The translations under genes were made by a program, and so were the position numbers. From the IMG/VR virus record IMGVR_UViG_3300048091_000424: 48,057 nucleotides of DNA; one strand, 5' to 3'. The notes under the pieces were generated by a model. It was not told where the DNA came from. It did not search any database and saw nothing but the letters and a program-made list of their open reading frames with translations. This document shows positions 31,172-47,180 of the stretch, one piece after another. This DNA comes from a virus (lineage: Duplodnaviria > Heunggongvirae > Uroviricota > Caudoviricetes). Each line of letters begins with the position of its first letter. Positions within the stretch are counted from its first letter, which is position 1.

Positions 31172-33442
31172 TTACACCGTCACTTTCTTAACCGCAATGG
31201 CATCGACCTTCTGGTAACCCTGTGGAAGCTTGCTACCCCGCTTGCCACGAACGCCACGATAGGTCTCCTGATCGCTCGCCTTGATGGTCATGCTTTGCTT
31301 GCCGGCAGTCACCACCAGATCCTCATCGGCGGTGTGCACGATTAGCTGAATCATCAGCTCCTCCCGCCTTTCTGCACGCTCGGAGGAAATGCTGATGATC
31401 TTGTTACCTTTGCCTTTGCCCAGCTGCGGCAGCTCAGACACCGGGAACGTCAGCAGGCGACCTTCATTGGTCACCGCCGAGATCAGGTCGGTTTCTGGGT
31501 TGCTGATCAGCACCGGGATTGAGGATTTGGCACCTTCTGGCAGCGACAGCAGCGCCTTACCGCTCTTGTTCTTGGCCTGGAGGTCTTCGCCTTTGACCAC
31601 AAAGCCGTAACCGGCGTCCGAGGAAATCACGTACAGGGCGTTGTCATCCGGCATCATTACCCATTCGCAGGACGCTGCTGGCGGCATGCTCAGTTTGCCG
31701 GTGAGCGGTTCGCCTTGACCCCGTGCAGAAGGCAACAGGTGAGTTGGGAGCGAGTAGCTGCGACCGGTGGTGTCCATGAACACTGCCGACTGGTTGGAGC
31801 GACCATTTGCTGCACACTTGAACATGTCGCCGGCCTTGTACGACAGGCTGGCGCCATCGATGTCGTGGCCTTTGGCGCAGCGCACCCAGCCCTTGTCGGA
31901 CAGCACCACCGTGACCGGTTCGGACGGCAGCAACTCGGTTTCCGACATGGCCTTGGCCTCGCCCCGCTCCACCAGCGGCGAGCGACGGTCATCACCGTAG
32001 GTTTCGGCGTCAGCGATGAGTTCGCCACGCACCAGACCACGCAGTTTCGACTCGTTGCCCAGCTTATCTGTCAGGTCGGCCCGCTCGATCAGCAGTTCAT
32101 CCTGCTCACCGCGAATTTTCATCTCTTCCAGGCGAGCGAGCTGGCGCAGTCGGGTTTCCAGGATGTAGTCAGCCTGGACGTCGGTCAGCTTGAATTCGTC
32201 GATCAGCGCTTGTTTTGGGGCTTCCTCGGTGCGGATGATATGAATCACCCGATCCATGTTCAGGAACGCGATCAACAAGCCTTCCAGCAAGTGCAGGCGC
32301 TTGTTGACCTTGTCGAGACGGAACTGCAAGCGCCGGCGAACGGTGTCGATCCTGTAGTGCAGCCACTCAGAAAGCATGTTGTGCAGGTTTTTGACCTGTG
32401 GACTGCCATCCAGGCCGATGACGTTCATGTTCACCCGGTAGCTCGATTCCAGCTCGGTGGTCGCGAACAGGTGGCTCATCAGTGCGTCGTGGTCGAACTT
32501 TTTACGGGCGACCGGGATGATCACGATCCGGCAAGGGTTTTCGTGGTCGGACTCATCGCGCAGATCGGCAATTTGTGGTGCCTTGGAAGGCTTGGCCTGC
32601 ATCATGGCCGCGATCTGTTCCAGCACCTTGGCACCGGAGACCTGGTGCGGCAGCGAGGTGATGACGATGTCTCCGTCTTCAACGGTGTACACCGCCCGCA
32701 TCCGCAACGAACCCTTGCCCGAGGCGTACATCTTCATTAGCTCGGCTTTCGGCGTGATGATTTCAGCTTCAGTCGGATAGTCCGGGCCCTGAATGTGTTC
32801 CATCAGTTGCTCGAGACTGGCCTGTGGCTCGTCGAGCAAGCGAACGCAGGCGCCGGCGACTTCGCGCAGGTTGTGCGGCGGTACGTCGGTGGCCATACCC
32901 ACGGCAATGCCCGTGGTGCCATTGAGCAGAATGTTCGGCAGTCGGGCTGGCAGCGTGGAGGGCTCATCCAACGTGCCGTCGAAGTTCGGCTGCCAATCGA
33001 CCGTACCCTGGTCGATCTCGGAAAGCAGAGACTCAGCGTAGCGCGACAAGCGAGCTTCGGTGTATCGCATGGCGGCGAAGGACTTGGGATCATCCGGCGC
33101 ACCCCAGTTACCCTGGCCATCGACCAGCGTGTAGCGGTAGCTGAAGGGTTGTGCCATCAGCACCATCGCTTCGTAGCAGGCGGAGTCGCCGTGGGGATGG
33201 TACTTGCCGAGCACGTCACCAACCGTACGCGCCGACTTCTTGTGCTTGGAATCAGCGTCCAGGCCCAGTTGGTTCATCGCGTAGACAATGCGGCGCTGCA
33301 CCGGCTTCAGGCCATCACCGATATGCGGCAATGCACGATCCAGGATCACGTACATCGAGTAGTTGAGGTAAGCCTGCTCGGTGAAGGCGTGCATCGAGCG
33401 TTTTTCGACGCCGTCCAGGCTCTGGTCTATGGCTTCAGACAT
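31172..33442 (-). CDS. parC: DNA topoisomerase IV subunit A
   Basis: [43 protein letters not shown], catalytic AAMRYTE; Pseudomonas-like sequence; GGAG RBS before ATG 33442. Confidence 0.97.
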
Positions 33443-33728
33443 TGGAAGCTTCTCCATCAATAGGGTGGTCAGCCAGGGATTCTTCTGGCTCAGTCAATAC
33501 AGGTGGCTCTGGAATTTCCAAGGGGCCGAAAAATTGGTATCCGGCGCCTTCCTCGTAAACAAACCTGTCGTAATCACTGTCAAGGCTGGATACGACCCCA
33601 TCGGTGACATCGATCAATTCGTGCATGGCACCATACTGCCCATAGCCAATGGCAACAAAGTAGTCACCGGACACGGTGGGAAGCGTTGTTGTCCAAACGA
33701 GATCGGCTAATGCGATTGGCAGAGTCAT
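33435..33728 (-). CDS. Small hypothetical protein (WT..LP..G.Y...GP family)
   Basis: Overlaps the parC start by 8 bp and the upstream ORF by 4 bp; paralog of 33725..34012. Confidence 0.65.
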
Positions 33729-34012
33729 GACATGCCCTTCCCTGTGGAATTGAGCATTGGATGACTTGCCATCAATTCAGCAGGAATGGTTGGCACTGGA
33801 ATTGGGCCGTAATACCAGAACTCGTGCAGCTCACTTCGCCAAGTCCCGCCAGGTTCACCGAATTCGAAGCTAAAAACCTGCCCATCAGCTTCGACGCAGA
33901 TTTTTTCAAGGTCGGTGGCGCCAGACGATGGGAGCATCACCCAGTAAAAGCCATCGACTTTAGGTAAGTCCTGAGTCCAGGCCAGCTCGGCGGTGGGCAG
34001 AATATCACTCAC
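33725..34012 (-). CDS. Small hypothetical protein (WT..LP..G.Y...GP family)
   Basis: GTGA overlap with the parE stop; paralog of 33435..33728. Confidence 0.65.
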   Translation of the reverse strand: MSDILPTAELAWTQDLPKVDGFYWVMLPSSGATDLEKICVEADGQVFSFEFGEPGGTWRSELHEFWYYGPIPVPTIPAELMASHPMLNSTGKGMS

Positions 34013-35910
34013 GCCAACACCTCGGCCAAGTTGCCTTTGGTCTCGAGCCAGGTCTTGCGGTCGCCGGCGCGTTTCTTCGACAGCAGCATGTCCATCATTT
34101 CGCTGGTCTGGGCGTAGTCTTCCAGGGTCAGCTGCACCAGACGGCGGGTGTTCGGATCCATGGTGGTCTCACGCAGCTGCGGCGGGTTCATCTCACCCAG
34201 ACCCTTGAATCGGGTCACTTGAGGCGTGCCACGCTTCTTGGTCGCCGCCAGGCGATCCAACACACCATCTCGCTCGGCTTCGTCGAGGGCGTAGAACACT
34301 TCCTTGCCCAGGTCGATGCGGTACAGCGGCGGCATGGCGACGTAGACGTGTCCTGCATCGACCAGCGGACGGAAATGCTGGACGAACAAGGCGCACAGCA
34401 AAGTCGCGATGTGCAGACCGTCGGAGTCGGCATCGGCGAGGATGCAGATCTTGCCATAGCGCAGCTCAGTGAGGTTGTCCGAACCTGGGTCAATACCCAT
34501 GGCCACGGCGATGTTGTGCACTTCCTGGCTGGCCAGCACTTCCCCGCCGTCGACTTCCCAGGTGTTCAGGATCTTACCGCGAAGCGGCAGGATGGCCTGG
34601 AACTCCTTGTCGCGGGCCTGCTTGGCGGAACCGCCTGCAGAGTCACCCTCTACCAGGAACAGTTCAGAACGCATGCTGTCCTGCCCGGAGCAGTCGGCCA
34701 GCTTGCCGGGCAGCGCCGGGCCCTGGGTGATTCGCTTTCGCTCTACGCTTTTGTTGGTTTTGAGGCGGCGACGGGCGTTGTCGATGAACATTTCAGCCAG
34801 CGCCTGGCCCTTTTCAGGGTTACCGTTGAGCCACAGACTGAAGGCATCCTTGACCACGCCGGAAACGAATGACGACGCGTTACGCGAGGACAGACGCTCT
34901 TTGGTCTGGCCCGAGAACTGGGCGTCCTGCATTTTCAACGAGACGACGTGTGAAATCTTGTCCCAGACGTCTTCCGGGGTCAGTTTCACGCCACGCGGAA
35001 GGATGTTGCGGAATTCGCAGAACTCACGCACGGCATCGAGCAAGCCCTGGCGCAGGCCGTTGACGTGTGTACCACCTTGCGCAGTCGGGATCAGGTTGAC
35101 GTAGCTTTCTTGAATCAGCTCGCCGCCCTCGGGTTGCCACAGCAACGCCCACTCAACCGCTTCTTTGGTACCAGAGAAGGAACCGGTGAACGGCACTTCC
35201 GGCATCTTTAGCCATTCGTCGCCGCAGGCTTCCATCAGGTAGCTTGGCAGGCCATCTTCGTAGTGCCACTCGGTGACTTCACCGGTGTTTTTGTCCTCAA
35301 ACGACACCGCCAGGCCTGGGCACAGAACGGCTTTGGCCTTGAGCACGTGCTTGAGGCGGCTGACGGAGAACTTGGCGAAGTCGAAATACTTCGGATCTGG
35401 CCAGAAGTGAACGCTGGTGCCGGTGTTTTTCTTGCCGACGGTACCGGTGATTGCCATCTCGGTGGCTTTGTAGCCATCCTTGAAGGTCATCTGGTATTCG
35501 TTACCGCCACGCTTGACCCGCACCCGAACATCCGTGGACAAGGCGTTAACCACGGAAATACCCACACCGTGCAAGCCACCGGAGAACGCGTAGTTCTTAT
35601 TGCTGAACTTACCACCTGCGTGCAACTTGGTCAGGATCAGCTCGACACCGCTCACCCCTTCTTCCGGGTGAATGTCCACCGGCATGCCACGACCGTCGTC
35701 GATGACTTCCATCGAGTTGTCGGCATGGAGAATGACCTGAATTGACTTGGCATGGCCGGCCATGGCTTCGTCGACACTGTTGTCGATGACTTCCTGGGCC
35801 AAATGGTTTGGCCGCGTGGTATCGGTGTACATGCCAGGTCGCTTTCGGACAGGATCGAGGCCGGAAAGCACTTCGATGGCGTCAGCGTTGTAACTGTTCG
35901 GTAAAGTCAT
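34009..35910 (-). CDS. parE: DNA topoisomerase IV subunit B
   Basis: YNADAIEVLSGLDPVRKRPGMY, GHKL motifs (EVIDNSVDE, DDGRGMP, GGLHGVG), Toprim EGDSAGG/PLRGK/DADSDG. Alternative start at 35922. Confidence 0.97.
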   Translation of the reverse strand: MTLPNSYNADAIEVLSGLDPVRKRPGMYTDTTRPNHLAQEVIDNSVDEAMAGHAKSIQVILHADNSMEVIDDGRGMPVDIHPEEGVSGVELILTKLHAGGKFSNKNYAFSGGLHGVGISVVNALSTDVRVRVKRGGNEYQMTFKDGYKATEMAITGTVGKKNTGTSVHFWPDPKYFDFAKFSVSRLKHVLKAKAVLCPGLAVSFEDKNTGEVTEWHYEDGLPSYLMEACGDEWLKMPEVPFTGSFSGTKEAVEWALLWQPEGGELIQESYVNLIPTAQGGTHVNGLRQGLLDAVREFCEFRNILPRGVKLTPEDVWDKISHVVSLKMQDAQFSGQTKERLSSRNASSFVSGVVKDAFSLWLNGNPEKGQALAEMFIDNARRRLKTNKSVERKRITQGPALPGKLADCSGQDSMRSELFLVEGDSAGGSAKQARDKEFQAILPLRGKILNTWEVDGGEVLASQEVHNIAVAMGIDPGSDNLTELRYGKICILADADSDGLHIATLLCALFVQHFRPLVDAGHVYVAMPPLYRIDLGKEVFYALDEAERDGVLDRLAATKKRGTPQVTRFKGLGEMNPPQLRETTMDPNTRRLVQLTLEDYAQTSEMMDMLLSKKRAGDRKTWLETKGNLAEVLA

Positions 35911-35941
35911 TGGGCGTTCCATCAAATCAGATAGTGGCAGA

Positions 35942-41829: not shown

Positions 41830-42237
41830 CTACCCCACCAGATCTTTGGCCACGCGGGAGGCTGTGCCCTTGTCGTACTGGCCAGCATAACGCTTGCCAA
41901 GGTACTTCATTGCCTCACCGATATTGGTCGCGCCACTCAGGCGCAGGGCTTCCCGTAGGGCGTCCTCGCTCATCTCGCTCGGCAGGAATGACTGTAGCTC
42001 CAGGTTCTCGGCTGTCAGTCGGGCATCACCATCGCACAGCTTGATGGTTTCATCGTTGGACTTGATCAGTTTCTTGACCACTGCGACAACTTTATCGTCG
42101 GTGATCTCCAGCCCCTTGCCCTTGGTGAGCGTTTCCAGCTCGCCGACCAGGAGGGTGAGAATCTTGAAACCAATGACCTGGGTCGCGTCCTTTCGCAACT
42201 CAGCCCGTCTGGTTTGTACTGCCTCGAACAAGCTCAT
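41830..42237 (-). CDS. GatB/YqeY domain protein
   Basis: LTLLVGEL...ITDDKVVAVVKKLIKS..ET...E...LQSFLPSEMSED.L...IGEAMKYL...Y.G..D...AS fits free-standing YqeY. Confidence 0.8.
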   Translation of the reverse strand: MSLFEAVQTRRAELRKDATQVIGFKILTLLVGELETLTKGKGLEITDDKVVAVVKKLIKSNDETIKLCDGDARLTAENLELQSFLPSEMSEDALREALRLSGATNIGEAMKYLGKRYAGQYDKGTASRVAKDLVG

Positions 42238-42321
42238 GGTGCATTTTTCCTTCCGATGTTTATGAGGGGTTATGGGTGGCTGAAAACCCTGGACATCCAA
42301 TGACGGACAGGGCGGTTAAGG

Positions 42322-42394
42322 TGGAGCGTCCTATGGGTTTCGAACCCATCTCTCTTGCCTGGCAGACAAGGGCGCAACCCTATACCAAGGACGC
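42322..42394 (-). tRNA. tRNA-Gly(GCC), weak D arm
   Basis: 7-bp acceptor GCGTCCT/AGGACGC, U73, CCA, loop CTGCCAG, T loop TTCGAAA. Confidence 0.75.
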
Positions 42395-42401
42395 AAAATT
42401 G

Positions 42402-42476
42402 TGGCGGGCCTGACAGGATTCGAACCTGTGGTGGACGGATCAAAACCGCCTGCCTTACCAACTTGGCTACAGACCT
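42402..42476 (-). tRNA. tRNA-Gln(TTG)
   Basis: Gln-type D arm GCCAAGTTGGTAAGGC, loop TTTTGAT, CCA; A1-C72 mismatch. Confidence 0.9.
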
Positions 42477-42481
42477 ACATC

Positions 42482-42559
42482 TGGGGTGACTAAAGGGAAT
42501 CGAACCCTTGACCTCCGGTGCCACAAACCGGCGCTCTAACCAACTGAGCTATAACCACC
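42482..42559 (-). tRNA. tRNA-His(GTG)
   Basis: G-1:C73 pair, loop TTGTGGC, CCA. Confidence 0.93.
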
Positions 42560-42606
42560 ATTTACTCTTCACGACTTACAGACGGAACCACCTGTAAGTC
42601 ATTGTT

Positions 42607-42680
42607 TGGAAGACCTGCCTGGATTCGAACCAGGGGTGCCGGGATCAAAACCCAGTGCCTTACCGCTTGGCTACAAGTCC
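42607..42680 (-). tRNA. tRNA-Gln(TTG)
   Basis: D arm GCCAAGCGGTAAGGC, loop TTTTGAT, CCA; G1-U72 and U73 are atypical. Confidence 0.85.
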
Positions 42681-42685
42681 ACAAC

Positions 42686-42762
42686 TGAGGGTGTCCGGAG
42701 GGATTCGAACCCCCGCTATAGTGGCAAGGCCACTACGGTTCTGCCGCTAAACTACAGACACC
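42686..42762 (-). pseudogene. His-like aberrant tRNA (7-bp arm with a 5-nt CCTTG loop; 3' end CTCA)
   Basis: 8-bp acceptor GGTGTCTG/CGGACACC and an intact T arm, but no canonical anticodon loop and no encoded CCA. Confidence 0.65.
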
Positions 42763-42810
42763 ATAAACTTTATACTGACTTACAAGAACTGCTCGTAAGT
42801 CATTGAAAAA

Positions 42811-42885
42811 TGGCGGGCCCTGCTGGACTCGAACCAGCGATGGCGGTATCAGAAACCGCTGCCTTACCAACTTGGCTAAGGGCCT
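42811..42885 (-). tRNA. tRNA-Gln(CTG)
   Basis: Loop TTCTGAT, Gln-type D arm, CCA; A1-C72 mismatch. Confidence 0.92.
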
Positions 42886-42890
42886 TCAAA

Positions 42891-42967
42891 TGGTAGGGAG
42901 TGACGGATTCGAACCGGCGACCCTCTGCTTGTAAGGCAGATGCTCTAACCAACTGAGCTAACCCCCT
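42891..42967 (-). tRNA. tRNA-Val(TAC)
   Basis: Loop CTTACAA, full cloverleaf, CCA. Confidence 0.93.
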
Positions 42968-43043
42968 GAAACTGGTAGCGACCCGCCGCTTCGCTACCGT
43001 GCTTGATGCCCTATCAAGCTCCAGAACCCTACAGGTTCCAATG

Positions 43044-43120
43044 TGGTGGGTGGCGTGAGATTTGAACTCTACGACCTTCCGGTTAAGAGCCGGTTGCTCT
43101 ACCAACTGAGCTAGCCACCC
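43044..43120 (-). tRNA. tRNA-Lys(CTT)
   Basis: Loop CTCTTAA, CCA; one bulged base in the T stem. Confidence 0.88.
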
Positions 43121-43137
43121 GTGAAACTTTTTACCGC

Positions 43138-43347
43138 CTAAGCCTTGTTTTCTGCCGCTTCGGTATCGAACATATCGCCGAATATTGCCAAGTGATCTTC
43201 CCTACTCAGCTTTGACATGCATTGCGCCAGCCGCTGATCCATCTGCTGATTCTGTAACATCAGCCTTTCCAGGTCATCCACCTGCACCTCGACCACCGGT
43301 GCCTCTGCCTGTCTTGCTTTCCGTAGAGCAATTCTCAGTCTTAACAT
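43138..43347 (-). CDS. Small hypothetical protein embedded in the tRNA array
   Basis: AGGA RBS, 69 aa, fills the gap between the tRNA-like RNA and tRNA-Lys(CTT). Confidence 0.55.
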   Translation of the reverse strand: MLRLRIALRKARQAEAPVVEVQVDDLERLMLQNQQMDQRLAQCMSKLSREDHLAIFGDMFDTEAAENKA

Positions 43348-43373
43348 GCGTTGATCCTACGGTGTTGCCTTGT

Positions 43374-43609
43374 TGGTGGAGATGACGGGACTTGAACCCG
43401 TGTGGTCTACGACTAAGGGATTTTCGGCCCTCAGCTCAATGCAGGTTTAGAGTACGCTTCCCTTGCTGCTTTTACCCCACCCTGGGGGAGTGATTACCGA
43501 TCCAGGGCCGCTATAGGTGCTTCTGACACATTCCCCTGATTGATTAGTAGGTGGTTTTTACACCTCGGCTTCTAATTTTAGCCGTGCCTTGCCTCTCAGC
43601 CACATCCCC
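43374..43609 (-). ncRNA. 236-nt tRNA-shaped RNA with an alanine-type acceptor and a large structured insert
   Basis: Acceptor GGGGATG/CATCTCC with G3-U70, A73 and CCA; T arm ACGGG-TTCAAGT-CCCGT; D-like arm GCTGAGAGGCAAGGC; about 170 nt in place of the anticodon/variable region. Confidence 0.75.
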
Positions 43610-43656
43610 TTAACTTTCTCGAAGCTAGATTACAATTAAGCTGTAACCTATTGATT

Positions 43657-43731
43657 TGGCGGGCCATGGAGGACTCGAACCCCCACCAACGGATTTGGAA
43701 TCCGGCATGCTGCCATTACAATCAATGACCC
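43657..43731 (-). tRNA. tRNA-Trp(CCA)
   Basis: Loop TTCCAAA, G73, CCA; weak D stem. Confidence 0.82.
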
Positions 43732-43781
43732 GTGAACTGTGGAGATCTCTCTCCTGGTGCTACGTGTTGCTGTATCAAAAG

Positions 43782-43857
<76 letters not shown>

Positions 43858-43862
43858 GCGTG

Positions 43863-43938
43863 TGGTGGGTGGTGCGAGGTTCGAACTCGCGGCCAGTCGA
43901 TTAAAAGTCGACTGCTCTACCAGCTGAGCTAACCACCC
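43863..43938 (-). tRNA. tRNA-Lys(TTT)
   Basis: Loop CTTTTAA, full cloverleaf, CCA. Confidence 0.95.
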
Positions 43939-44065
43939 GAAAATCCTGGCAGTAACGGACTGCCTCCCGTGCTTGATGAACAGCCCCACGCCTCGCTTTC
44001 ATCCTGTTCAAGACTTAACTTGAACCCCTAAATAAGTGTCGTAACACCCTGTTTTATATCGTATT

Positions 44066-44141
44066 TGGTGGAATCAAAGGGGTTCGAACCCTCGACCTCC
44101 TGCTTGCAAGGCAGGCGCTCTCCCAGCTGAGCTATGACCCC
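44066..44141 (-). tRNA. tRNA-Ala(TGC)
   Basis: Loop CTTGCAA, G3-U70, CCA. Confidence 0.95.
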
Positions 44142-44192
44142 GTTTGTTGCCTGGCACCACCGGCCATTGAGACCGCTCTGTGATGCCGTATG

Positions 44193-44277
44193 TGGTGGGC
44201 CGGGAAGGATTTGAACCTTCGAATCCGTCGGAGGCGGGGTTACAACCCGCTTGCTTTAGCCGCTTGCATACCGACCC
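44193..44277 (-). tRNA. tRNA-Tyr(GTA)
   Basis: Loop TTGTAAC, long variable arm, CCA. Confidence 0.92.
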
Positions 44278-44326
44278 AAAACTGCTGATTTCTACTTTAC
44301 CGGGCCACTCTTTTGCCCTTCAAAAA

Positions 44327-44407
44327 TGGTTCCATGACCAGGGTTCGAACCTGGGCCTCCTACCTACTATTTCAAGGCCTGGACTCTACCGACTGAGTTA
44401 TCACGGA
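44327..44407 (-). pseudogene. Phe-like aberrant tRNA (anticodon arm disrupted, about 5 extra nt)
   Basis: Acceptor TCCGTGA/TCATGGA, D arm, T arm and CCA are intact; the middle CAGGCCTTGAAATAGTAGGTAGGAGGC forms no canonical 5-bp/7-nt arm. Confidence 0.6.
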
Positions 44408-44413
44408 ACAATT

Positions 44414-44489
44414 TGGTGCATGTGGACAGGTTCGAACTGCCGGCCTCACCCTTATCAGGGGTGCGCTCTACCAACTGAGCTACACGTGC
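44414..44489 (-). tRNA. tRNA-Ile(GAT)
   Basis: Loop CTGATAA, CCA. Confidence 0.93.
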
Positions 44490-44535
44490 GTGTTTCGTTT
44501 TGGGAGCAAACCGCCTCCCGATACTGCCTACTATA

Positions 44536-44611
44536 TGGTGCTGAAGACTGGCCTTGAACCAGTGACCTCGGGGTTATGAGTCCCGCGCTCTGCCAACTGA
44601 GCTACATCAGC
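44536..44611 (-). tRNA. tRNA-Met or Ile2 (CAT)
   Basis: Loop CTCATAA, paired G1-C72 (so not an initiator), CCA. Met versus lysidine-Ile cannot be resolved by eye. Confidence 0.88.
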
Positions 44612-44612
44612 G

Positions 44613-44689
44613 TGGTCGGGGGCACGTGATTCGAACACGTGACCAATCGGTTAAAAGCCGATTGCTCTATCCAGCTGAGCTAGCCCCCG
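44613..44689 (-). tRNA. tRNA-Lys(TTT)
   Basis: Loop CTTTTAA, full cloverleaf, CCA. Confidence 0.93.
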
Positions 44690-44852
44690 GTAAATCAAAT
44701 TCTTCGCCCCTTTATCGATAAGGGCATCGCCACATACGAAGTGGGTCGTGTCTCAGCTTCTTGACCTGGTCGAAACCTCGGCGTCTGCTGGTCAACTGTG
44801 TACTCAAACTAGTGTTATAACAACTAACTGCAACTTCTGAGTACGACTTTAT

Positions 44853-44936
44853 TGGTGGGGAAGGAAGGATTCGAACCTTCGAAAAATTAATATCCGATTT
44901 ACAGTCAGACGGCTTTGGCCACTCACCTACTTCCCC
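44853..44936 (-). tRNA. tRNA-Tyr(GTA)
   Basis: Loop CTGTAAA, AT-rich long variable arm, CCA. Confidence 0.92.
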
Positions 44937-44981
44937 GATAAACATTTAAGCGATAACACTTACAAACACTTGCTGAAGACC

Positions 44982-45010
44982 ATTAAATATTGTGTTTTTA
45001 TCGATGTCAA
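44982..45010 (-). promoter_or_regulatory. Internal sigma70-type promoter in the tRNA array
   Basis: TTGACA (45010..45005), N17, TTTAAT (44987..44982), with an AT-rich upstream tract. Confidence 0.7.
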
Positions 45011-45043
45011 CAACTTATTTTCAACTATTAAAACATTAAAATC

Positions 45044-45119
45044 TGGAGATAACGGCGGGACTTGAACCCGCGTAAAAATGATTTGCAATCATTTGCCTAA
45101 CCAACTCAGCCACGTCACC
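45044..45119 (-). tRNA. tRNA-Cys(GCA)
   Basis: Loop TTGCAAA, U73, CCA. Confidence 0.93.
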
Positions 45120-45165
45120 AGAACTAATAGCTACTCAATTTAAACTGCTTGAGTTGCTTTGAAAT

Positions 45166-45241
45166 TGGCTCCCACACCTGGACTCGAACCAGGGACACCG
45201 TGATTAACAGTCACGTACTCTACCAACTGAGCTATATGGGA
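45166..45241 (-). tRNA. tRNA-Asn(GTT)
   Basis: U1-A72, G73, loop CTGTTAA, CCA. Confidence 0.95.
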
Positions 45242-45299
45242 TCTAAACTTTTGAAACCCTTGTAAACTCTGCCTTCCACGCTTTTGAAGGTCTTAAATT

Positions 45300-45375
45300 T
45301 GGCTCCCCCGCCTGGACTCGAACCAGAGACCTGATGATTAACAGTCAACTGCTCTACCAACTGAGCTACAAGGGA
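45300..45375 (-). tRNA. tRNA-Asn(GTT)
   Basis: U1-A72, G73, loop CTGTTAA, CCA. Confidence 0.93.
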
Positions 45376-45424
45376 ATTAAACTTTTACTCGTTCTGCCTT
45401 CCATGCTTTCGAAGGACTTAAAAT

Positions 45425-45500
45425 TGGTGCAGCGAACTGGGATCGAACCAGTGACCAACGGGCTTTCAACTCGTCACTCTACCAACTGAGTTACCGCTGC
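45425..45500 (-). tRNA. tRNA-Phe(GAA), first gene of the array
   Basis: Loop TTGAAAG, A73, CCA. Confidence 0.9.
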
Positions 45501-45526
45501 AATGTGCCGCTTAGTTTCTCCGAGGC

Positions 45527-45631
45527 AAACAAAAACCCCGGAGCTTTTGAAGGCTCCGGGGTTTTGAGTTCCCGTTTTCTTGAGCCTTCACTTGCTTTCG
45601 CTAGTGTAGGCTCCAAACAGGCTACCTACAC
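45527..45631 (-). promoter_or_regulatory. Transcription attenuator (terminator plus antiterminator) upstream of the tRNA array
   Basis: Terminator CCCCGGAGC-CTTCAAAA-GCTCCGGGG-TTTTTGTTT (45561..45527). TGAAGGCTC (45590..45582) is the exact complement of GAGCCTTCA (45556..45548) in the terminator. Further pairings overlap the leader stop codon. Confidence 0.75.
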
Positions 45632-45703
45632 GTGGCGCACACACCACTTGGCAAAATAGTTATTCGCCATCTGTTTCGCTTGGTGGTTAATGTGTGCGTT
45701 CAT
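45626..45703 (-). CDS. 25-aa leader peptide MNAHINHQAKQMANNYFAKWCVRHV
   Basis: GGAG RBS 9 nt before ATG, immediately after the promoter; the stop codon lies inside attenuator stem 1. Below the ORF-track length cut-off. Confidence 0.75.
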   Translation of the reverse strand: MNAHINHQAKQMANNYFAKWCVRHV

Positions 45704-45730
45704 GTTCGGTATCTCCGTTGAGTTGATTTA

Positions 45731-45759
45731 ATTAAATACAACCTTCTAAACCGTGTCAA
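45731..45759 (-). promoter_or_regulatory. Sigma70-type promoter of the leader/tRNA operon
   Basis: TTGACA (45759..45754), N17, TTTAAT (45736..45731), with an A/T UP-like tract upstream. Confidence 0.8.
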
Positions 45760-45839
45760 CAACATTTTTTAAAAAAGTTGAAATTATTTTTAGAGGGGCT
45801 TGGCTAATCGAGGAGCGGCCTCTCCAGATAGTCTTATTA

Positions 45840-46244
45840 CTAAGGGCTTGGTGACGACTCTTCAGCAGCTTCGTATTTTTGCCGAAGTCTGTCAGCACTC
45901 ATCCAGGCGCAATCCTCAAACCCCTGGGTGAACTCATAACCTCTACGCTTGAGTGCATCCTTTAACAGCGGGCTGATAATCGACTGAACGAACACAGATA
46001 ACCCATGCTGGCTGGAAACCCGTTCTGCGTGATCCAAGAATTGGCGAAATACGCCCTGCCCTTTATGCCTGTCATCAACCTCAACGTCGGCGATGTCGAG
46101 GGTACGACCAACAGTAGATCCCATAAACCGAGTGGTAAGGCGAACATACACCTTCAGTGGGCCCATGGAGAGTTTCTTGCGAGCAACTTGCTTTGCCGCG
46201 TTGTCACGGATGAAATGATCGAGCTCTTGAAACGAGGTGCTCAT
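45840..46244 (-). CDS. GNAT-family acetyltransferase-like protein with EESSPSP tail
   Basis: LDIADVEVDDRHKGQGVFRQFL...L..ALKRRGY (acetyl-CoA binding motif A); start placed at MSTSF. Confidence 0.65.
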   Translation of the reverse strand: MSTSFQELDHFIRDNAAKQVARKKLSMGPLKVYVRLTTRFMGSTVGRTLDIADVEVDDRHKGQGVFRQFLDHAERVSSQHGLSVFVQSIISPLLKDALKRRGYEFTQGFEDCAWMSADRLRQKYEAAEESSPSP

Positions 46245-46391: not shown

Positions 46392-47180
46392 ATGTTTACC
46401 AGGATCCCCGGCGTTCCCCTGTTCAGGCGCCTGGCAGCCAACACCCGTGGCCGCGACTTTATCGTGGCCGACGTGCATGGTTGCTACACCCTGCTGCAGA
46501 GACTTCTCGACAAAGTGAGCTTCGATCCCACCAAGGATCGCCTCATTATTGCCGGCGACCTCATAGACCGAGGGCCTGAATCCATCAAAGCCCTGGACTG
46601 GATTTACAAACCCTGGGTGCACGTCGTTGCGGGCAACCACGACCTCATGTTGCTGGTAGCCGCATACAAGGGTGGCGATGAGTTTCATGAGGAGCATGGA
46701 GGCGAATGGTTTGTTCCTGTGATGCGGGAGCAACCTGATCTCGCTATGGAATTTGTTCAGGTATTTGAAGGGCTGCCCATCGCCCTTGAGGTCGAGTGCC
46801 TGGATGGCCGGCGATTTGGCATTGTCCATGCCGAATGCCCGCATTTCGACTGGAACGATTTTACGCACGCCTTGGAGCATGAGCAGAATCCGGCAAGGTT
46901 GGATAATATTGTTTGTGCTGCAACGCAGATGCGCACCCGAGACGAGCTCAAAGACACCACGTGCGTCACCGGGATCGACACTGTTTTCGTTGGCCACTCG
47001 CTGATGGATCAAACCCAGCTTCTGGGTAACACCCTGTACATCGACACCTGGGCATCTTCCGATAAAGGTCGACTTACGCTCATGCAGATGGATACGCGCC
47101 AGGAGTGGACACTGTCCCGTCCAGAACTGCGAGCCATGCGCCTCCGCGAGCAGGAATCAGCCAACAGCTTCGGCCCATAA
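46392..47180 (+). CDS. Serine/threonine protein phosphatase (PphA/lambda NinI-like metallophosphoesterase)
   Basis: ADVHG, GDLIDRG, GNHD, HAE and GHS metal-binding motifs, ...YIDT. Confidence 0.88.
   Translation: MFTRIPGVPLFRRLAANTRGRDFIVADVHGCYTLLQRLLDKVSFDPTKDRLIIAGDLIDRGPESIKALDWIYKPWVHVVAGNHDLMLLVAAYKGGDEFHEEHGGEWFVPVMREQPDLAMEFVQVFEGLPIALEVECLDGRRFGIVHAECPHFDWNDFTHALEHEQNPARLDNIVCAATQMRTRDELKDTTCVTGIDTVFVGHSLMDQTQLLGNTLYIDTWASSDKGRLTLMQMDTRQEWTLSRPELRAMRLREQESANSFGP

What the first reader, a model, noticed from the sequence alone, without database searches (positions are those of the whole stretch)
45527..45631. Five-segment attenuator with inverted logic: stalling anywhere gives read-through into the tRNAs
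Seen on the minus strand: S1 GTGTAGG (45631..45625, last codon plus stop) pairs with CCTACAC (45610..45604). The alternative S2:S3 hairpin is GAGCCT-A-CACT-A-GC-GAAA-GC-A-AGTG-A-AGGCTC (45613..45582), capped by a GNRA tetraloop. Antiterminator S3:S4 is TGAAGGCTC/GAGCCTTCA (9 perfect bp). Terminator S4:S5 is a 9-bp GC stem plus U tract, 27 nt before tRNA-Phe. Inference: a ribosome that reaches the stop covers S1, so S2:S3 forms, the terminator forms and transcription stops. A ribosome stalled well upstream of the stop, or no translation at all, leaves S1:S2, so S3:S4 forms and the array is transcribed. Established: in the four-segment trp attenuator only stalling at the specific codons antiterminates and absent translation gives termination. 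The extra segment here would reverse that parity, which is what a multi-codon or general translation-stress sensor would need.
Basis: partly seen in the sequence, partly recalled or inferred. Interest (0 to 1): 0.88.

Follow-up and report, generated by a model that had tools for sequence, protein, structure and literature searches.

The report
Leader-peptide attenuator gating a tRNA array
A tiny translated test gene and a five-part RNA switch sit in front of a 21-gene tRNA cluster on a giant Pseudomonas plasmid, and probably let the cluster be transcribed only when ribosomes fail to finish the test gene, a feedback control I did not find described for tRNA genes.

Summary
On the minus strand there is a sigma-70-type promoter, a Shine-Dalgarno site, a 25-codon ORF (45703..45626), four mutually exclusive helices (S1:S2, S2:S3, S3:S4, S4:S5) and a U tract. 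tRNA-Phe, the first of 21-22 tRNA genes, follows 26 nt later.

The DNA belongs to the pMPPla107/pBASL58 family of ~1-Mb Pseudomonas megaplasmids. Ten homologous leaders (four plasmids, six metagenome contigs) keep all helices. S1:S2 and S3:S4 each show three base pairs with compensatory double changes.

In folding with a ribosome footprint, a ribosome at the stop codon or the last 3-4 codons gives S2:S3, which leaves the terminator free, in 11 of 11 leaders. A ribosome stalled further upstream gives S1:S2 plus the antiterminator in most.

About 90% of leader residues are amino acids whose tRNAs the array encodes. The same plasmids carry two other array classes (Ser/Leu/Thr/Pro and Glu/Asp/Arg), each with its own matching leader and switch.

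"No translation gives read-through" is unsettled: it is predicted in 8 of 11 homologs but not for the window's own sequence. The completion-sensing logic is already known from the mycobacterial whiB7 uORF.

This scan has found codon-matched leaders before tRNA arrays in several phages. I found no publication. Nothing here is tested experimentally.

The parts
45754..45759 (-). -35 hexamer TTGACA of the leader promoter
   Evidence: Read. It lies 17 nt from the -10 hexamer. TTGAC is conserved in the 11-sequence alignment.
45731..45736 (-). -10 hexamer TTTAAT; predicted transcription start near 45724
   Evidence: T.TAAT is invariant in alignment A1. The consensus scan missed it because it demands A at position 2. 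No RNA-library contig extends upstream of 45710 (weak hint).
45712..45716 (-). Shine-Dalgarno GGAGA, 8 nt before the ATG
   Evidence: GAGA is invariant in all 11 homologs.
45626..45703 (-). Leader ORF, 25 codons plus TAG (MNAHINHQAKQMANNYFAKWCVRHV)
   Evidence: The frame is kept in all homologs (25, 26 or 28 codons) and indels are multiples of three. 23 of 24 residues after Met1 have a tRNA gene in the array.
45636..45698 (-). P0: hairpin that closes the ORF (codons 2-4 CGCACAC with codons 21-23 GTGTGCG, apical hairpin over codons 13-18)
   Evidence: Present in the MFE folds of all 11 leaders. The core helix is 83% paired. The basal extension onto the start codon and S1 is not conserved column by column (51-52% paired).
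45624..45631 (-). S1, overlapping the last sense codon and the stop codon
   Evidence: Pairs with S2 over 7-8 bp. Three pairs show compensatory double changes and the helix is 97% paired in 11 leaders.
45600..45613 (-). S2, which pairs with either S1 or S3
45582..45595 (-). S3, which pairs with S2 (anti-antiterminator, GAAA tetraloop 45599..45596) or with S4 (antiterminator)
   Evidence: An S2:S3 hairpin is predicted in all 11 leaders (-15 to -25 kcal/mol). S3:S4 is 92.6% paired, with three pairs changed on both sides.
45548..45556 (-). S4, the antiterminator partner of S3; overlaps the last 4 nt of the terminator's 5' arm and its loop
45527..45561 (-). Intrinsic terminator: 9-bp G+C stem (45561..45553 with 45544..45536), 8-nt loop, U tract 45535..45527
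   Evidence: The stem is invariant in the 11 homologs. One RNA-library contig ends at 45532, in the U tract (weak hint).
42322..45500 (-). The controlled tRNA array: 21 genes by ARAGORN, 22 by Rfam, plus a tmRNA-like gene, followed by a GatB/YqeY-domain ORF (41830..42300)

Best explanation
This is a ribosome-mediated (leader-peptide) transcription attenuator that controls a horizontally carried tRNA gene array on a pMPPla107-family Pseudomonas megaplasmid.

Transcription starts at a sigma-70-type promoter. A ribosome loads on the 25-codon leader ORF while RNA polymerase continues.

The RNA downstream can fold in two exclusive ways:
- OFF: S2:S3 plus the terminator S4:S5.
- ON: S1:S2 plus the antiterminator S3:S4.

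S1 overlaps the stop codon and S2 lies just beyond the footprint of a terminating ribosome. A ribosome that reaches the end of the ORF in time therefore covers S1 and frees S2 to trap S3. The terminator then forms and transcription stops 26 nt before tRNA-Phe.

If the ribosome is held up earlier in the ORF, S1:S2 persists, S3 pairs with S4 and polymerase reads into the array.

The leader is written almost entirely in codons for amino acids whose tRNAs the array encodes. The switch therefore measures how fast these codons are decoded and feeds that back on the supply of the matching tRNAs.

Shown here: the sequence elements, their conservation, covariation of S1:S2 and S3:S4, the composition match, and the thermodynamic preference under footprint constraints.

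Inferred: translation of the ORF, timing and coupling, the actual termination efficiencies, and the physiological signal.
For: 1. Anatomy. Promoter, SD, ORF, four alternating helices and a U tract lie directly before the first tRNA, with no room for another promoter. The leader is strongly structured (z = -7.4).

2. Ten homologs exist in four megaplasmids and six metagenome contigs at about 70-93% identity. They keep the frame, the SD, the position of the stop inside S1 and all helices.

3. Covariation. S1:S2 + S3:S4 is 94.6% paired, with 6 pairs and 19 cells changed on both sides, 0 of 500 shuffles as high, and slid controls at 22-46%. For example, S3:S4 is TGAAGGCTC/GAGCCTTCA here and GTTAGGCTC/GAGCCTAAC in pMPPla107. 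S1:S2 is GTGTAGG/CCTACAC here, CGGTAGG/CCTACCG in pBASL58 and CTAAGTA/TACTTAG (with a TAA stop) in the FeN3W plasmid.

4. Energetics. S1:S2 (-14.7) plus S3:S4 (-18.4) outweighs S2:S3 (-25.0) when S1 is free. S2:S3 beats S3:S4 when S1 is masked.

5. Footprint-constrained partition functions. With the A site at the stop or the last 3-4 codons, about 9-11 S2:S3 pairs and about 0 S3:S4 pairs are expected in 11 of 11 leaders. With the A site at codons 2 to about 21, S1:S2 + S3:S4 forms in most. The result is robust for a 3' footprint edge of +10 to +14 nt from the first base of the stop.

6. Composition. 91 of 101 leader residues in four plasmids fall in the array's amino-acid set, against a 55% background. 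Out-of-set residues (Arg, Ser, Pro) sit almost only in the last 3-4 codons, where a stall no longer antiterminates.

7. Independent replication on the same plasmids. The Ser/Leu/Thr/Pro arrays have S/L/T/P-rich leaders (85% in set, against 29% background). The Glu/Asp/Arg arrays have R/D/E-rich leaders (47% against 19%). Each has its own terminator and alternating helices, with the first segment at or just after the stop codon.

8. Weak hint of expression. Short contigs from soil RNA libraries of two studies cover 45494-45710 and 45532-45686, with 3 mismatches each. The second ends in the U tract.
Against: - There is no experimental evidence here for translation of the ORF, for a terminated leader RNA or for regulated read-through. 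The RNA-library contigs cannot show ends or strand, and DNA carry-over is possible.
- The folding tests are equilibrium calculations on chosen prefixes, not co-transcriptional kinetics.
- For the window's own sequence the model favours S2:S3 with no ribosome and with the A site at codons 10-17, and is mixed at 18-19, so 'any stall' is not predicted uniformly.
- The margin between a terminating ribosome's edge and S2 is only 2-4 nt. If the protected stretch reached +18, the prediction would flip.
- The 11 sequences form about five lineages, so the covariation events are few.
- The C-terminal peptide motif NYFAxWCV is conserved at the amino-acid level. The model does not require this, although the P0 pairing may explain it.
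- A promoter-like site with the same hexamers lies inside the array (45010..44982). It could bypass the switch for the 17 downstream tRNAs.
- More tRNA does not cure amino-acid starvation, so the selective logic holds only if tRNA amount, not charging, is what usually limits decoding.
Confidence: 0.65

Rival explanations
1. The same attenuator, but with his-type six-segment logic. The start-codon region and 5' part of the ORF (the 5' arm of P0) form a sixth segment that pairs with S1. An untranslated leader then folds as S0:S1, S2:S3, S4:S5 and terminates. Only a ribosome stalled inside the ORF, which holds S0 away from S1, gives read-through. The parity is not inverted.
For: - In the window's full-length and prefix MFE folds, S1 pairs with the start region (UACC/GGUA and ACAUG/CGUGU) and S2:S3 forms.
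- L021 behaves the same way, with CCUAC before its AUG pairing with S1.
- Several class II and III leaders fold to the termination state without a ribosome.
- The his leader of Salmonella has exactly such an A:B, B:C, C:D, D:E, E:F chain (my own knowledge).
Against: - The basal P0 pairs are only 51-52% paired across the 11 leaders, with little covariation.
- In 8 of 11 leaders the ribosome-free prefix prefers S1:S2 + S3:S4.
- In pMPPla107 the 3' arm of P0 ends next to S1 and does not overlap it.
Confidence: 0.2
2. The conserved peptide, not the codon content, is the sensor. A nascent-chain arrest motif (NYFAxWCV) would stall the ribosome in response to a small molecule or ribosome state, as in TnaC or Erm leaders.
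For: The C-terminal half of the peptide is conserved at the amino-acid level across about 70%-identical homologs, with some synonymous changes (TTT/TTC, GCC/GCT, AAC/AAT).
Against: - The conserved codons also form the P0 helix and its apical hairpin, which constrains them at the RNA level.
- The variable N-terminal half still draws almost only from the array's amino-acid set.
- The class II and III leaders have no such motif yet show the same architecture and their own composition match.
Confidence: 0.05
3. There is no regulation. A small independent gene (a small protein) with its own terminator happens to lie upstream, and the tRNAs are made from read-through or other promoters. The alternative helices would be incidental.
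For: A promoter-like site lies inside the array at 45010..44982. No direct expression data exist.
Against: - Compensatory changes in S1:S2 and S3:S4.
- Only 26 nt, with no promoter, lie between the U tract and tRNA-Phe.
- The composition match recurs three times, with different amino-acid sets, on each of four plasmids.
Confidence: 0.05
4. The opposite polarity. A ribosome at the stop codon reaches into S2 and blocks S2:S3, so efficient translation gives S3:S4 and read-through. The array would then be made when translation is fast.
For: If the protected stretch extends to +18 nt from the first base of the stop, the model switches to S3:S4 in all 11 leaders.
Against: - Footprints and toeprints place the edge about 12-13 nt after the first A-site base (my own knowledge). 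At +10 to +14 all 11 leaders give S2:S3.
- With S1:S2 present, both stalled and completing ribosomes would then give read-through. That leaves no terminating state and no reason for the S1:S2 covariation.
Confidence: 0.03

Closest known systems
Leader-peptide attenuators of amino-acid operons (trpL, hisL, leuL, thrL, ilvL, pheL of enterobacteria)
   Same: Promoter, short translated ORF with codons cognate to the operon's product, mutually exclusive RNA helices ending in an intrinsic terminator, and ribosome position as the input. The his leader also has a long chain of alternating helices, and ilvGMEDA and thr sense several amino acids.
   Different: - The controlled genes are tRNAs, not biosynthetic enzymes.
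- The leader samples about 13 amino acids spread over about 60 nt instead of a codon run inside segment 1.
- S1 sits on the stop codon, so the read-out is whether the ORF was completed in time, not whether the ribosome stalled at a given place.
- There is no sequence or Rfam similarity.
whiB7 uORF attenuator of mycobacteria/actinobacteria (PMC10274678)
   Same: Efficient uORF translation gives a Rho-independent terminator. Stalling at any codon type present in the uORF, or loss of the start codon, gives antitermination. The uORF composition sets which shortages are sensed.
   Different: It controls a transcription factor for intrinsic drug resistance, is Ala-rich, and occurs in another phylum with no homology. 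Here the output is the very tRNAs that read the leader, which gives a closed feedback loop.
pheM-pheST attenuator and T-box riboswitches (control of aminoacyl-tRNA synthetase genes; my own knowledge)
   Same: They regulate components of the decoding apparatus according to the state of the cognate tRNA, through terminator/antiterminator choice.
   Different: pheM controls a synthetase and senses only Phe codons. T-boxes bind uncharged tRNA directly without translation and belong to Firmicutes. No T-box or other Rfam leader family matches here.
Long tRNA arrays (L-arrays), e.g. the trn operon of Anabaena sp. PCC 7120 (PMC8421152, PMC10272220)
   Same: A long, horizontally spread, supernumerary tRNA array on a megaplasmid. 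In Anabaena it is silent normally and induced when translation is impaired.
   Different: In Anabaena control is at initiation, by the repressor TrcR acting on direct repeats at the promoter. Neither paper mentions a leader, attenuator or terminator.
Codon-matched leader attenuators before phage tRNA arrays, noted earlier by this scan (e1-3450868, e1-1678903, e1-4047519, e1-4040834 and others)
   Same: A promoter, a mini-ORF spelling the array's repertoire, and a terminator/antiterminator before each tRNA block. They are unpublished as far as those agents and I could find.
   Different: Those are in giant phages of other hosts, and I did not check them. The present case is on bacterial megaplasmids. 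It has three codon-partitioned classes per replicon and covariation support for a five-segment completion sensor.

Membership tests
Ribosome-mediated (leader-peptide) transcription attenuator | Short ORF with a ribosome-binding site in the 5' leader, between the promoter and the first structural gene | tested here: met
   SD GGAGA at 45716..45712 and ORF at 45703..45626. Frame, SD and stop position are conserved in 10 homologs, and indels are multiples of three.
Ribosome-mediated (leader-peptide) transcription attenuator | Intrinsic terminator (G+C hairpin plus U tract) before the first structural gene | tested here: met
   45561..45527, -23.5 kcal/mol, invariant stem.
Ribosome-mediated (leader-peptide) transcription attenuator | Antiterminator helix mutually exclusive with the terminator, and further helices that couple it to the ORF | tested here: met
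   S3:S4 overlaps the terminator's 5' arm. S1:S2 and S3:S4 covary (6 pairs with double changes, 0 of 500 shuffles as high).
Ribosome-mediated (leader-peptide) transcription attenuator | Regulatory codons cognate to what the operon supplies | tested here: met
   23 of 24 residues are in the array's set here and 91 of 101 over four plasmids, against a 55% background. The pattern is diagonal for three leader and array classes.
Ribosome-mediated (leader-peptide) transcription attenuator | Translation-dependent switching between a terminated leader RNA and read-through | not testable with these tools
   Only equilibrium folding with footprint masks and a weak hint from RNA-library contigs.
Curated Rfam leader families (Trp_leader, His_leader, Leu_leader, Thr_leader, T-box and others) | Match to a covariance model at or near the gathering score | tested here: not met
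   An E-value-mode scan of 42000..46200 found only tRNAs, a sub-threshold tmRNA-like hit and noise over the leader (SNORA14, E = 0.096).
trp-type four-segment logic (untranslated leader terminates) | Without a ribosome, the leader folds into the termination state | tested here: inconclusive
   The ribosome-free prefix favours S2:S3 in the window and L021, is mixed in L019, and favours S1:S2 + S3:S4 in 8 of 11.
L-array under TrcR-type repression (Anabaena) | Tandem direct-repeat operators over the -10 box and transcription start | not tested
   I made no dedicated search for repeats over this promoter. The two Anabaena papers describe no attenuator.

The most novel reading that the evidence does not exclude
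Megaplasmids of the pMPPla107 family run a codon-partitioned feedback system for tRNA supply. Three classes of tRNA array are involved: Phe/Tyr/Asn/Lys/Ile/His/Gln/Cys/Trp/Ala/Val, Ser/Leu/Thr/Pro, and Glu/Asp/Arg. Each is gated by its own leader ORF written in the codons that array serves. Each uses a switch whose first segment sits on the stop codon, so that polymerase terminates only if a pioneer ribosome finishes the test ORF in time. tRNA gene transcription would then be set species by species by measured decoding speed. As far as I found, this mode of tRNA homeostasis is not described for any cellular or plasmid tRNA gene.
Probability: 0.55. Interest if true: 0.9.

Novelty: new variant of a known kind. 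Interest (0 to 1): 0.8.

Why it matters
Bacterial tRNA genes are thought to be controlled globally, through growth rate, ppGpp and, in the one studied L-array, a repressor. They are not thought to be controlled by how well their own codons are being read.

A leader-peptide attenuator written in the array's own codons would be a direct, species-resolved feedback on tRNA supply. It could explain how a 1-Mb, lower-GC plasmid limits the translational cost it imposes on hosts with different tRNA pools.

The system offers natural sensors of decoding speed for defined codon sets. It also gives a clean case of a completion-sensing attenuator supported by covariation. With three parallel classes per plasmid, specificity is directly testable by swapping codons between leaders.

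The same design recurs in giant phages seen by this scan. That suggests a widespread but unreported rule for mobile tRNA arrays.

Tried and rejected
- Phage origin. The window first looked phage-like (tRNA array, phosphatase, gyrase genes). BLAST against phages hit only the tRNA-Phe part.
- The window's own assembly is not held. A family-wide DNA search of 301 genomes found the leader only in the nearest genome, G001.
- The consensus promoter and terminator scan missed both the promoter and the terminator on the minus strand, because of its own rules.
- A pattern scan of viral contigs found nothing.
- BLAST with the divergent leaders found no plasmids beyond the same four. The class II leader was found by BLAST only in pPL1; the other class II and III leaders were found by locating tRNA clusters instead.
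- A generic 'terminator 5' arm paired' measure did not discriminate states, because the arm also pairs locally. I dropped it.
- Equilibrium modelling of class II leaders with a ribosome at the stop did not cleanly give the termination fold. I draw no conclusion from it.
- RNA-library contigs mostly matched conserved tRNA-Asn sequence from other organisms. Uncovered parts prove nothing.
- The second sequencing-run search, protein structure tools and complex prediction were not used, as they do not bear on an RNA switch.

Full report
**What is there**

Read on the minus strand, the region upstream of the first tRNA gene contains, in order:
- a sigma-70-type promoter: TTGACA 45759..45754, a 17-nt spacer, and TTTAAT 45736..45731;
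- a Shine-Dalgarno GGAGA (45716..45712);
- a 25-codon ORF (45703..45626);

S1 (45631..45625, extendable to 45624) covers the last sense codon and the TAG stop. It is complementary to part of S2 (45610..45604). S2 (45613..45600) and S3 (45595..45582) form a hairpin capped by GAAA. S3 (45590..45582) is perfectly complementary over 9 nt to S4 (45556..45548). S4 overlaps the 5' arm and loop of a 9-bp G+C terminator (45561..45553 with 45544..45536), which is followed by TTTTTGTTT (45535..45527).

tRNA-Phe begins at 45500. It is followed by 20 more tRNA genes by ARAGORN, 21 more by Rfam.

The leader as a whole is far more structured than shuffled controls (-81.1 against -49.1 +/- 4.3 kcal/mol, z = -7.4). 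No Rfam family matches the leader.

**Where it comes from**

The window is not phage DNA. It belongs to the pMPPla107/pBASL58 family of about 1-Mb Pseudomonas megaplasmids.
- The nearest held genome carries a 99% identical copy on a 1.06-Mb contig.
- Homologous leaders at 70-93% identity occur in pPL1 of P. silesiensis, pBASL58, pMPPla107 and a plasmid of Pseudomonas sp. FeN3W.
- A pattern scan of metagenome contigs gave six more.
- None was found in 300 other genomes of the family, nor in viral contigs.

The paper describing these plasmids notes their many tRNA genes but reports no regulation (PMC6482414).

**Conservation and covariation**

All 11 leaders keep the promoter hexamers, the SD, an ORF of 25, 26 or 28 codons with in-frame indels, a stop codon lying inside S1, the GAAA-capped hairpin and the terminator.

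For the antitermination state (S1:S2 + S3:S4):
- 94.6% of cells are paired.
- Six of 16 pairs, and 19 cells, show changes on both sides.
- No shuffle out of 500 reaches the observed values.
- Sliding the partners by 1-3 columns drops pairing to 22-46%.

Examples read directly from the sequences:

| Helix | Window | pBASL58 | pMPPla107 | FeN3W plasmid |
|---|---|---|---|---|
| S1:S2 | GTGTAGG/CCTACAC | CGGTAGG/CCTACCG | not listed | CTAAGTA/TACTTAG (TAA stop) |
| S3:S4 | TGAAGGCTC/GAGCCTTCA | not listed | GTTAGGCTC/GAGCCTAAC | not listed |

S2:S3 is predicted in every leader but shifts register in its inner part. The terminator stem is invariant.

The sequences fall into about five lineages, so the number of independent events is small but not one.

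**Does the logic work on paper?**

Isolated hairpin energies in the window are -14.7 (S1:S2), -25.0 (S2:S3 with flanks), -18.4 (S3:S4) and -23.5 kcal/mol (terminator). When S1 is free, two helices (S1:S2 + S3:S4) outweigh S2:S3. When S1 is masked, S2:S3 beats S3:S4.

I folded the transcript up to the base before the terminator's 3' arm, with a 28-nt ribosome footprint forced single-stranded.
- With the A site on the stop or the last 3-4 sense codons, about 9-11 S2:S3 pairs and about 0 S3:S4 pairs are expected in all 11 leaders.
- With the A site at codons 2 to about 21, S1:S2 and S3:S4 dominate in most leaders.
- The window's own sequence is an exception at codons 10-17, and mixed at 18-19. 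There a competing pairing of the 5' UTR tips the balance to S2:S3.

The S2:S3 helix starts 15-17 nt after the first base of the stop in all lineages. The 'ribosome at stop' result holds for a footprint edge of +10 to +14 nt and flips at +16 to +18. So the design sits close to the edge of the ribosome. The result depends on the usual estimate of about 12-13 nt (my own knowledge).

**The untranslated state**

The ORF is closed by a hairpin, P0: codons 2-4 pair with codons 21-23, and an apical hairpin lies over codons 13-18.

In the window, and in L021, the base of P0 extends onto the start codon and S1. There the ribosome-free fold is S2:S3 plus terminator, as in the his leader.

In 8 of 11 leaders the ribosome-free prefix prefers S1:S2 + S3:S4. 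The basal P0 pairs are only about half conserved.

An ATG mutant would decide it.

**What the leader senses**

- 23 of the 24 residues after Met1 are amino acids with a tRNA gene in the array. Over four plasmids the figure is 91 of 101, against 55% in long ORFs of the window.
- All class I arrays carry the same identity set (Tyr, Ile, Ala, Trp, Asn, Lys, Phe, Thr, Cys, Val, Gln, His, Gly, Met). None has Leu, Ser, Pro, Arg, Asp or Glu.
- The variable N-terminal half of the peptide changes freely between lineages but stays within this set.
- The out-of-set residues (Arg, Ser, Pro) sit almost only in the last 3-4 codons. That is the zone where, in the model, a stall no longer antiterminates.

**Independent replication on the same plasmids**

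Locating all tRNA genes on four plasmids revealed two further array classes.

Arrays that begin Ser(GGA), Ser(GCT) and continue with Thr, Pro, Leu and Met are preceded by leaders such as MSSISSLTSLTPSSPAD (L028:869-922). 85% of their residues are in the array's set, against a 29% background.

Glu/Asp/Arg arrays are preceded by leaders rich in R, D and E (for example in L032, L035, L038). In the nearest genome there are two such leaders in tandem (L029). 47% of their residues are in the set, against 19% background.

Off-diagonal matches are 4-37%.

Each of these leaders has its own terminator and alternating helices. The first segment either contains the stop codon (class III) or starts 1-4 nt after it (class II).

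Leu(TAA)/Leu(CAA) pairs have plain promoters without leaders.

The composition match recurs three times with three different amino-acid sets. That is the strongest argument that the ORFs are decoding sensors rather than chance ORFs.

**Expression**

Only soil metatranscriptome contigs were available.
- Two short contigs from two studies, each with 3 mismatches, cover 45494-45710 and 45532-45686.
- The first runs roughly from the predicted start to the 5' end of tRNA-Phe.
- The second ends inside the U tract.

This is compatible with both a read-through, RNase P-cut leader and a terminated leader. However, contigs cannot establish ends, strand or transcription. I count it as a weak hint only.

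**Comparison with what is known**

The mechanism is classical leader-peptide attenuation, but the target is new. Six full-text searches found no report of a leader-peptide attenuator controlling tRNA genes.

The one studied long tRNA array, in Anabaena, is controlled by the repressor TrcR (PMC8421152, PMC10272220).

The 'inverted' logic has a precedent in the whiB7 uORF of mycobacteria. There, efficient uORF translation gives termination. Stalling at any amino acid represented in the uORF, or a start-codon loss, gives read-through (PMC10274678). So the logic itself is not new.

What is new is its use in a closed loop on tRNA supply, the explicit five-segment solution with S1 on the stop codon, and the three-class organisation.

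This scan has already noted codon-matched leaders before tRNA arrays in several giant phages. I did not check those notes. They suggest the principle is widespread on mobile DNA.

**Caveats**

- Everything mechanistic is inferred from sequence, conservation and equilibrium folding.
- A promoter-like site with the same hexamers (TTGACA 45010..45005, TTTAAT 44987..44982) lies between tRNA-Cys and tRNA-Tyr. It may feed the downstream 17 tRNAs independently of the switch.
- Conservation of the peptide motif NYFAxWCV is only partly explained, by P0 pairing.

**Verdict**

It is open on the untranslated state and overstated on novelty of the logic.

- Interest: 0.8
- Novelty: new variant of a known kind

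Noticed in passing
L028:817-1011 (nearest genome G001 C1:24816-25010); L031, L034, L037 upstream of the first tRNA-Ser: A second class of tRNA array (Ser, Ser, Thr, Pro, Ser, Leu, Met...) on the same megaplasmids has its own promoter, S/L/T/P-rich leader ORF and alternating helices plus terminator. The first helix segment starts 1-4 nt after the stop codon.
   Followed up: partly
L029:1290-1720 (minus strand); L032, L035, L038 upstream of the first tRNA: A third class of array (Glu/Asp/Arg repeats) has R/D/E-rich leader ORFs with terminators. In G001 and pMPPla107 two such leader-terminator units stand in tandem.
   Followed up: partly
window 45010..44982 (minus strand): A promoter-like site with the same hexamers as the leader promoter (TTGACA, 17 nt, TTTAAT) lies between tRNA-Cys and tRNA-Tyr inside the array. 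It has no leader ORF or terminator after it and could bypass the attenuator for the downstream tRNAs.
   Followed up: no
window 43374..43609 (minus strand): A tmRNA-like RNA gene lies inside the array: Rfam tmRNA 28.6 bits, below the gathering score of 47, E = 7e-9. It has a tRNA-like acceptor and T arm and an encoded CCA. ARAGORN does not call it. A ~68-codon ORF follows at about 43343..43140.
   Followed up: no
window 41830..42300 (minus strand); also L025:3404-3817 and L026:4286-4699: A GatB/YqeY-domain ORF directly follows the class I array in the window, pBASL58 and pMPPla107. It is probably co-transcribed and so under the same attenuator.
   Followed up: no
window 44330..44407 (minus strand): Rfam finds a 22nd tRNA-like gene (41.2 bits) that ARAGORN does not report, between tRNA-Ile and tRNA-Tyr.
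   Followed up: no
window 31172..35925 (minus strand) and 46392..47180 (plus strand): The plasmid carries its own gyrase/topoisomerase IV A and B subunit homologs, and a calcineurin-like phosphoesterase next to the array.
   Followed up: no
L027:6599-7233 (FeN3W plasmid) and L025:6022-6887 (pBASL58): Toxin-antitoxin pairs (PrlF/VapC; Xre-ParS/RES) are annotated a few kb downstream of the class I arrays. VapC toxins often cut tRNAs, which may bear on why tRNA supply is sensed.
   Followed up: no
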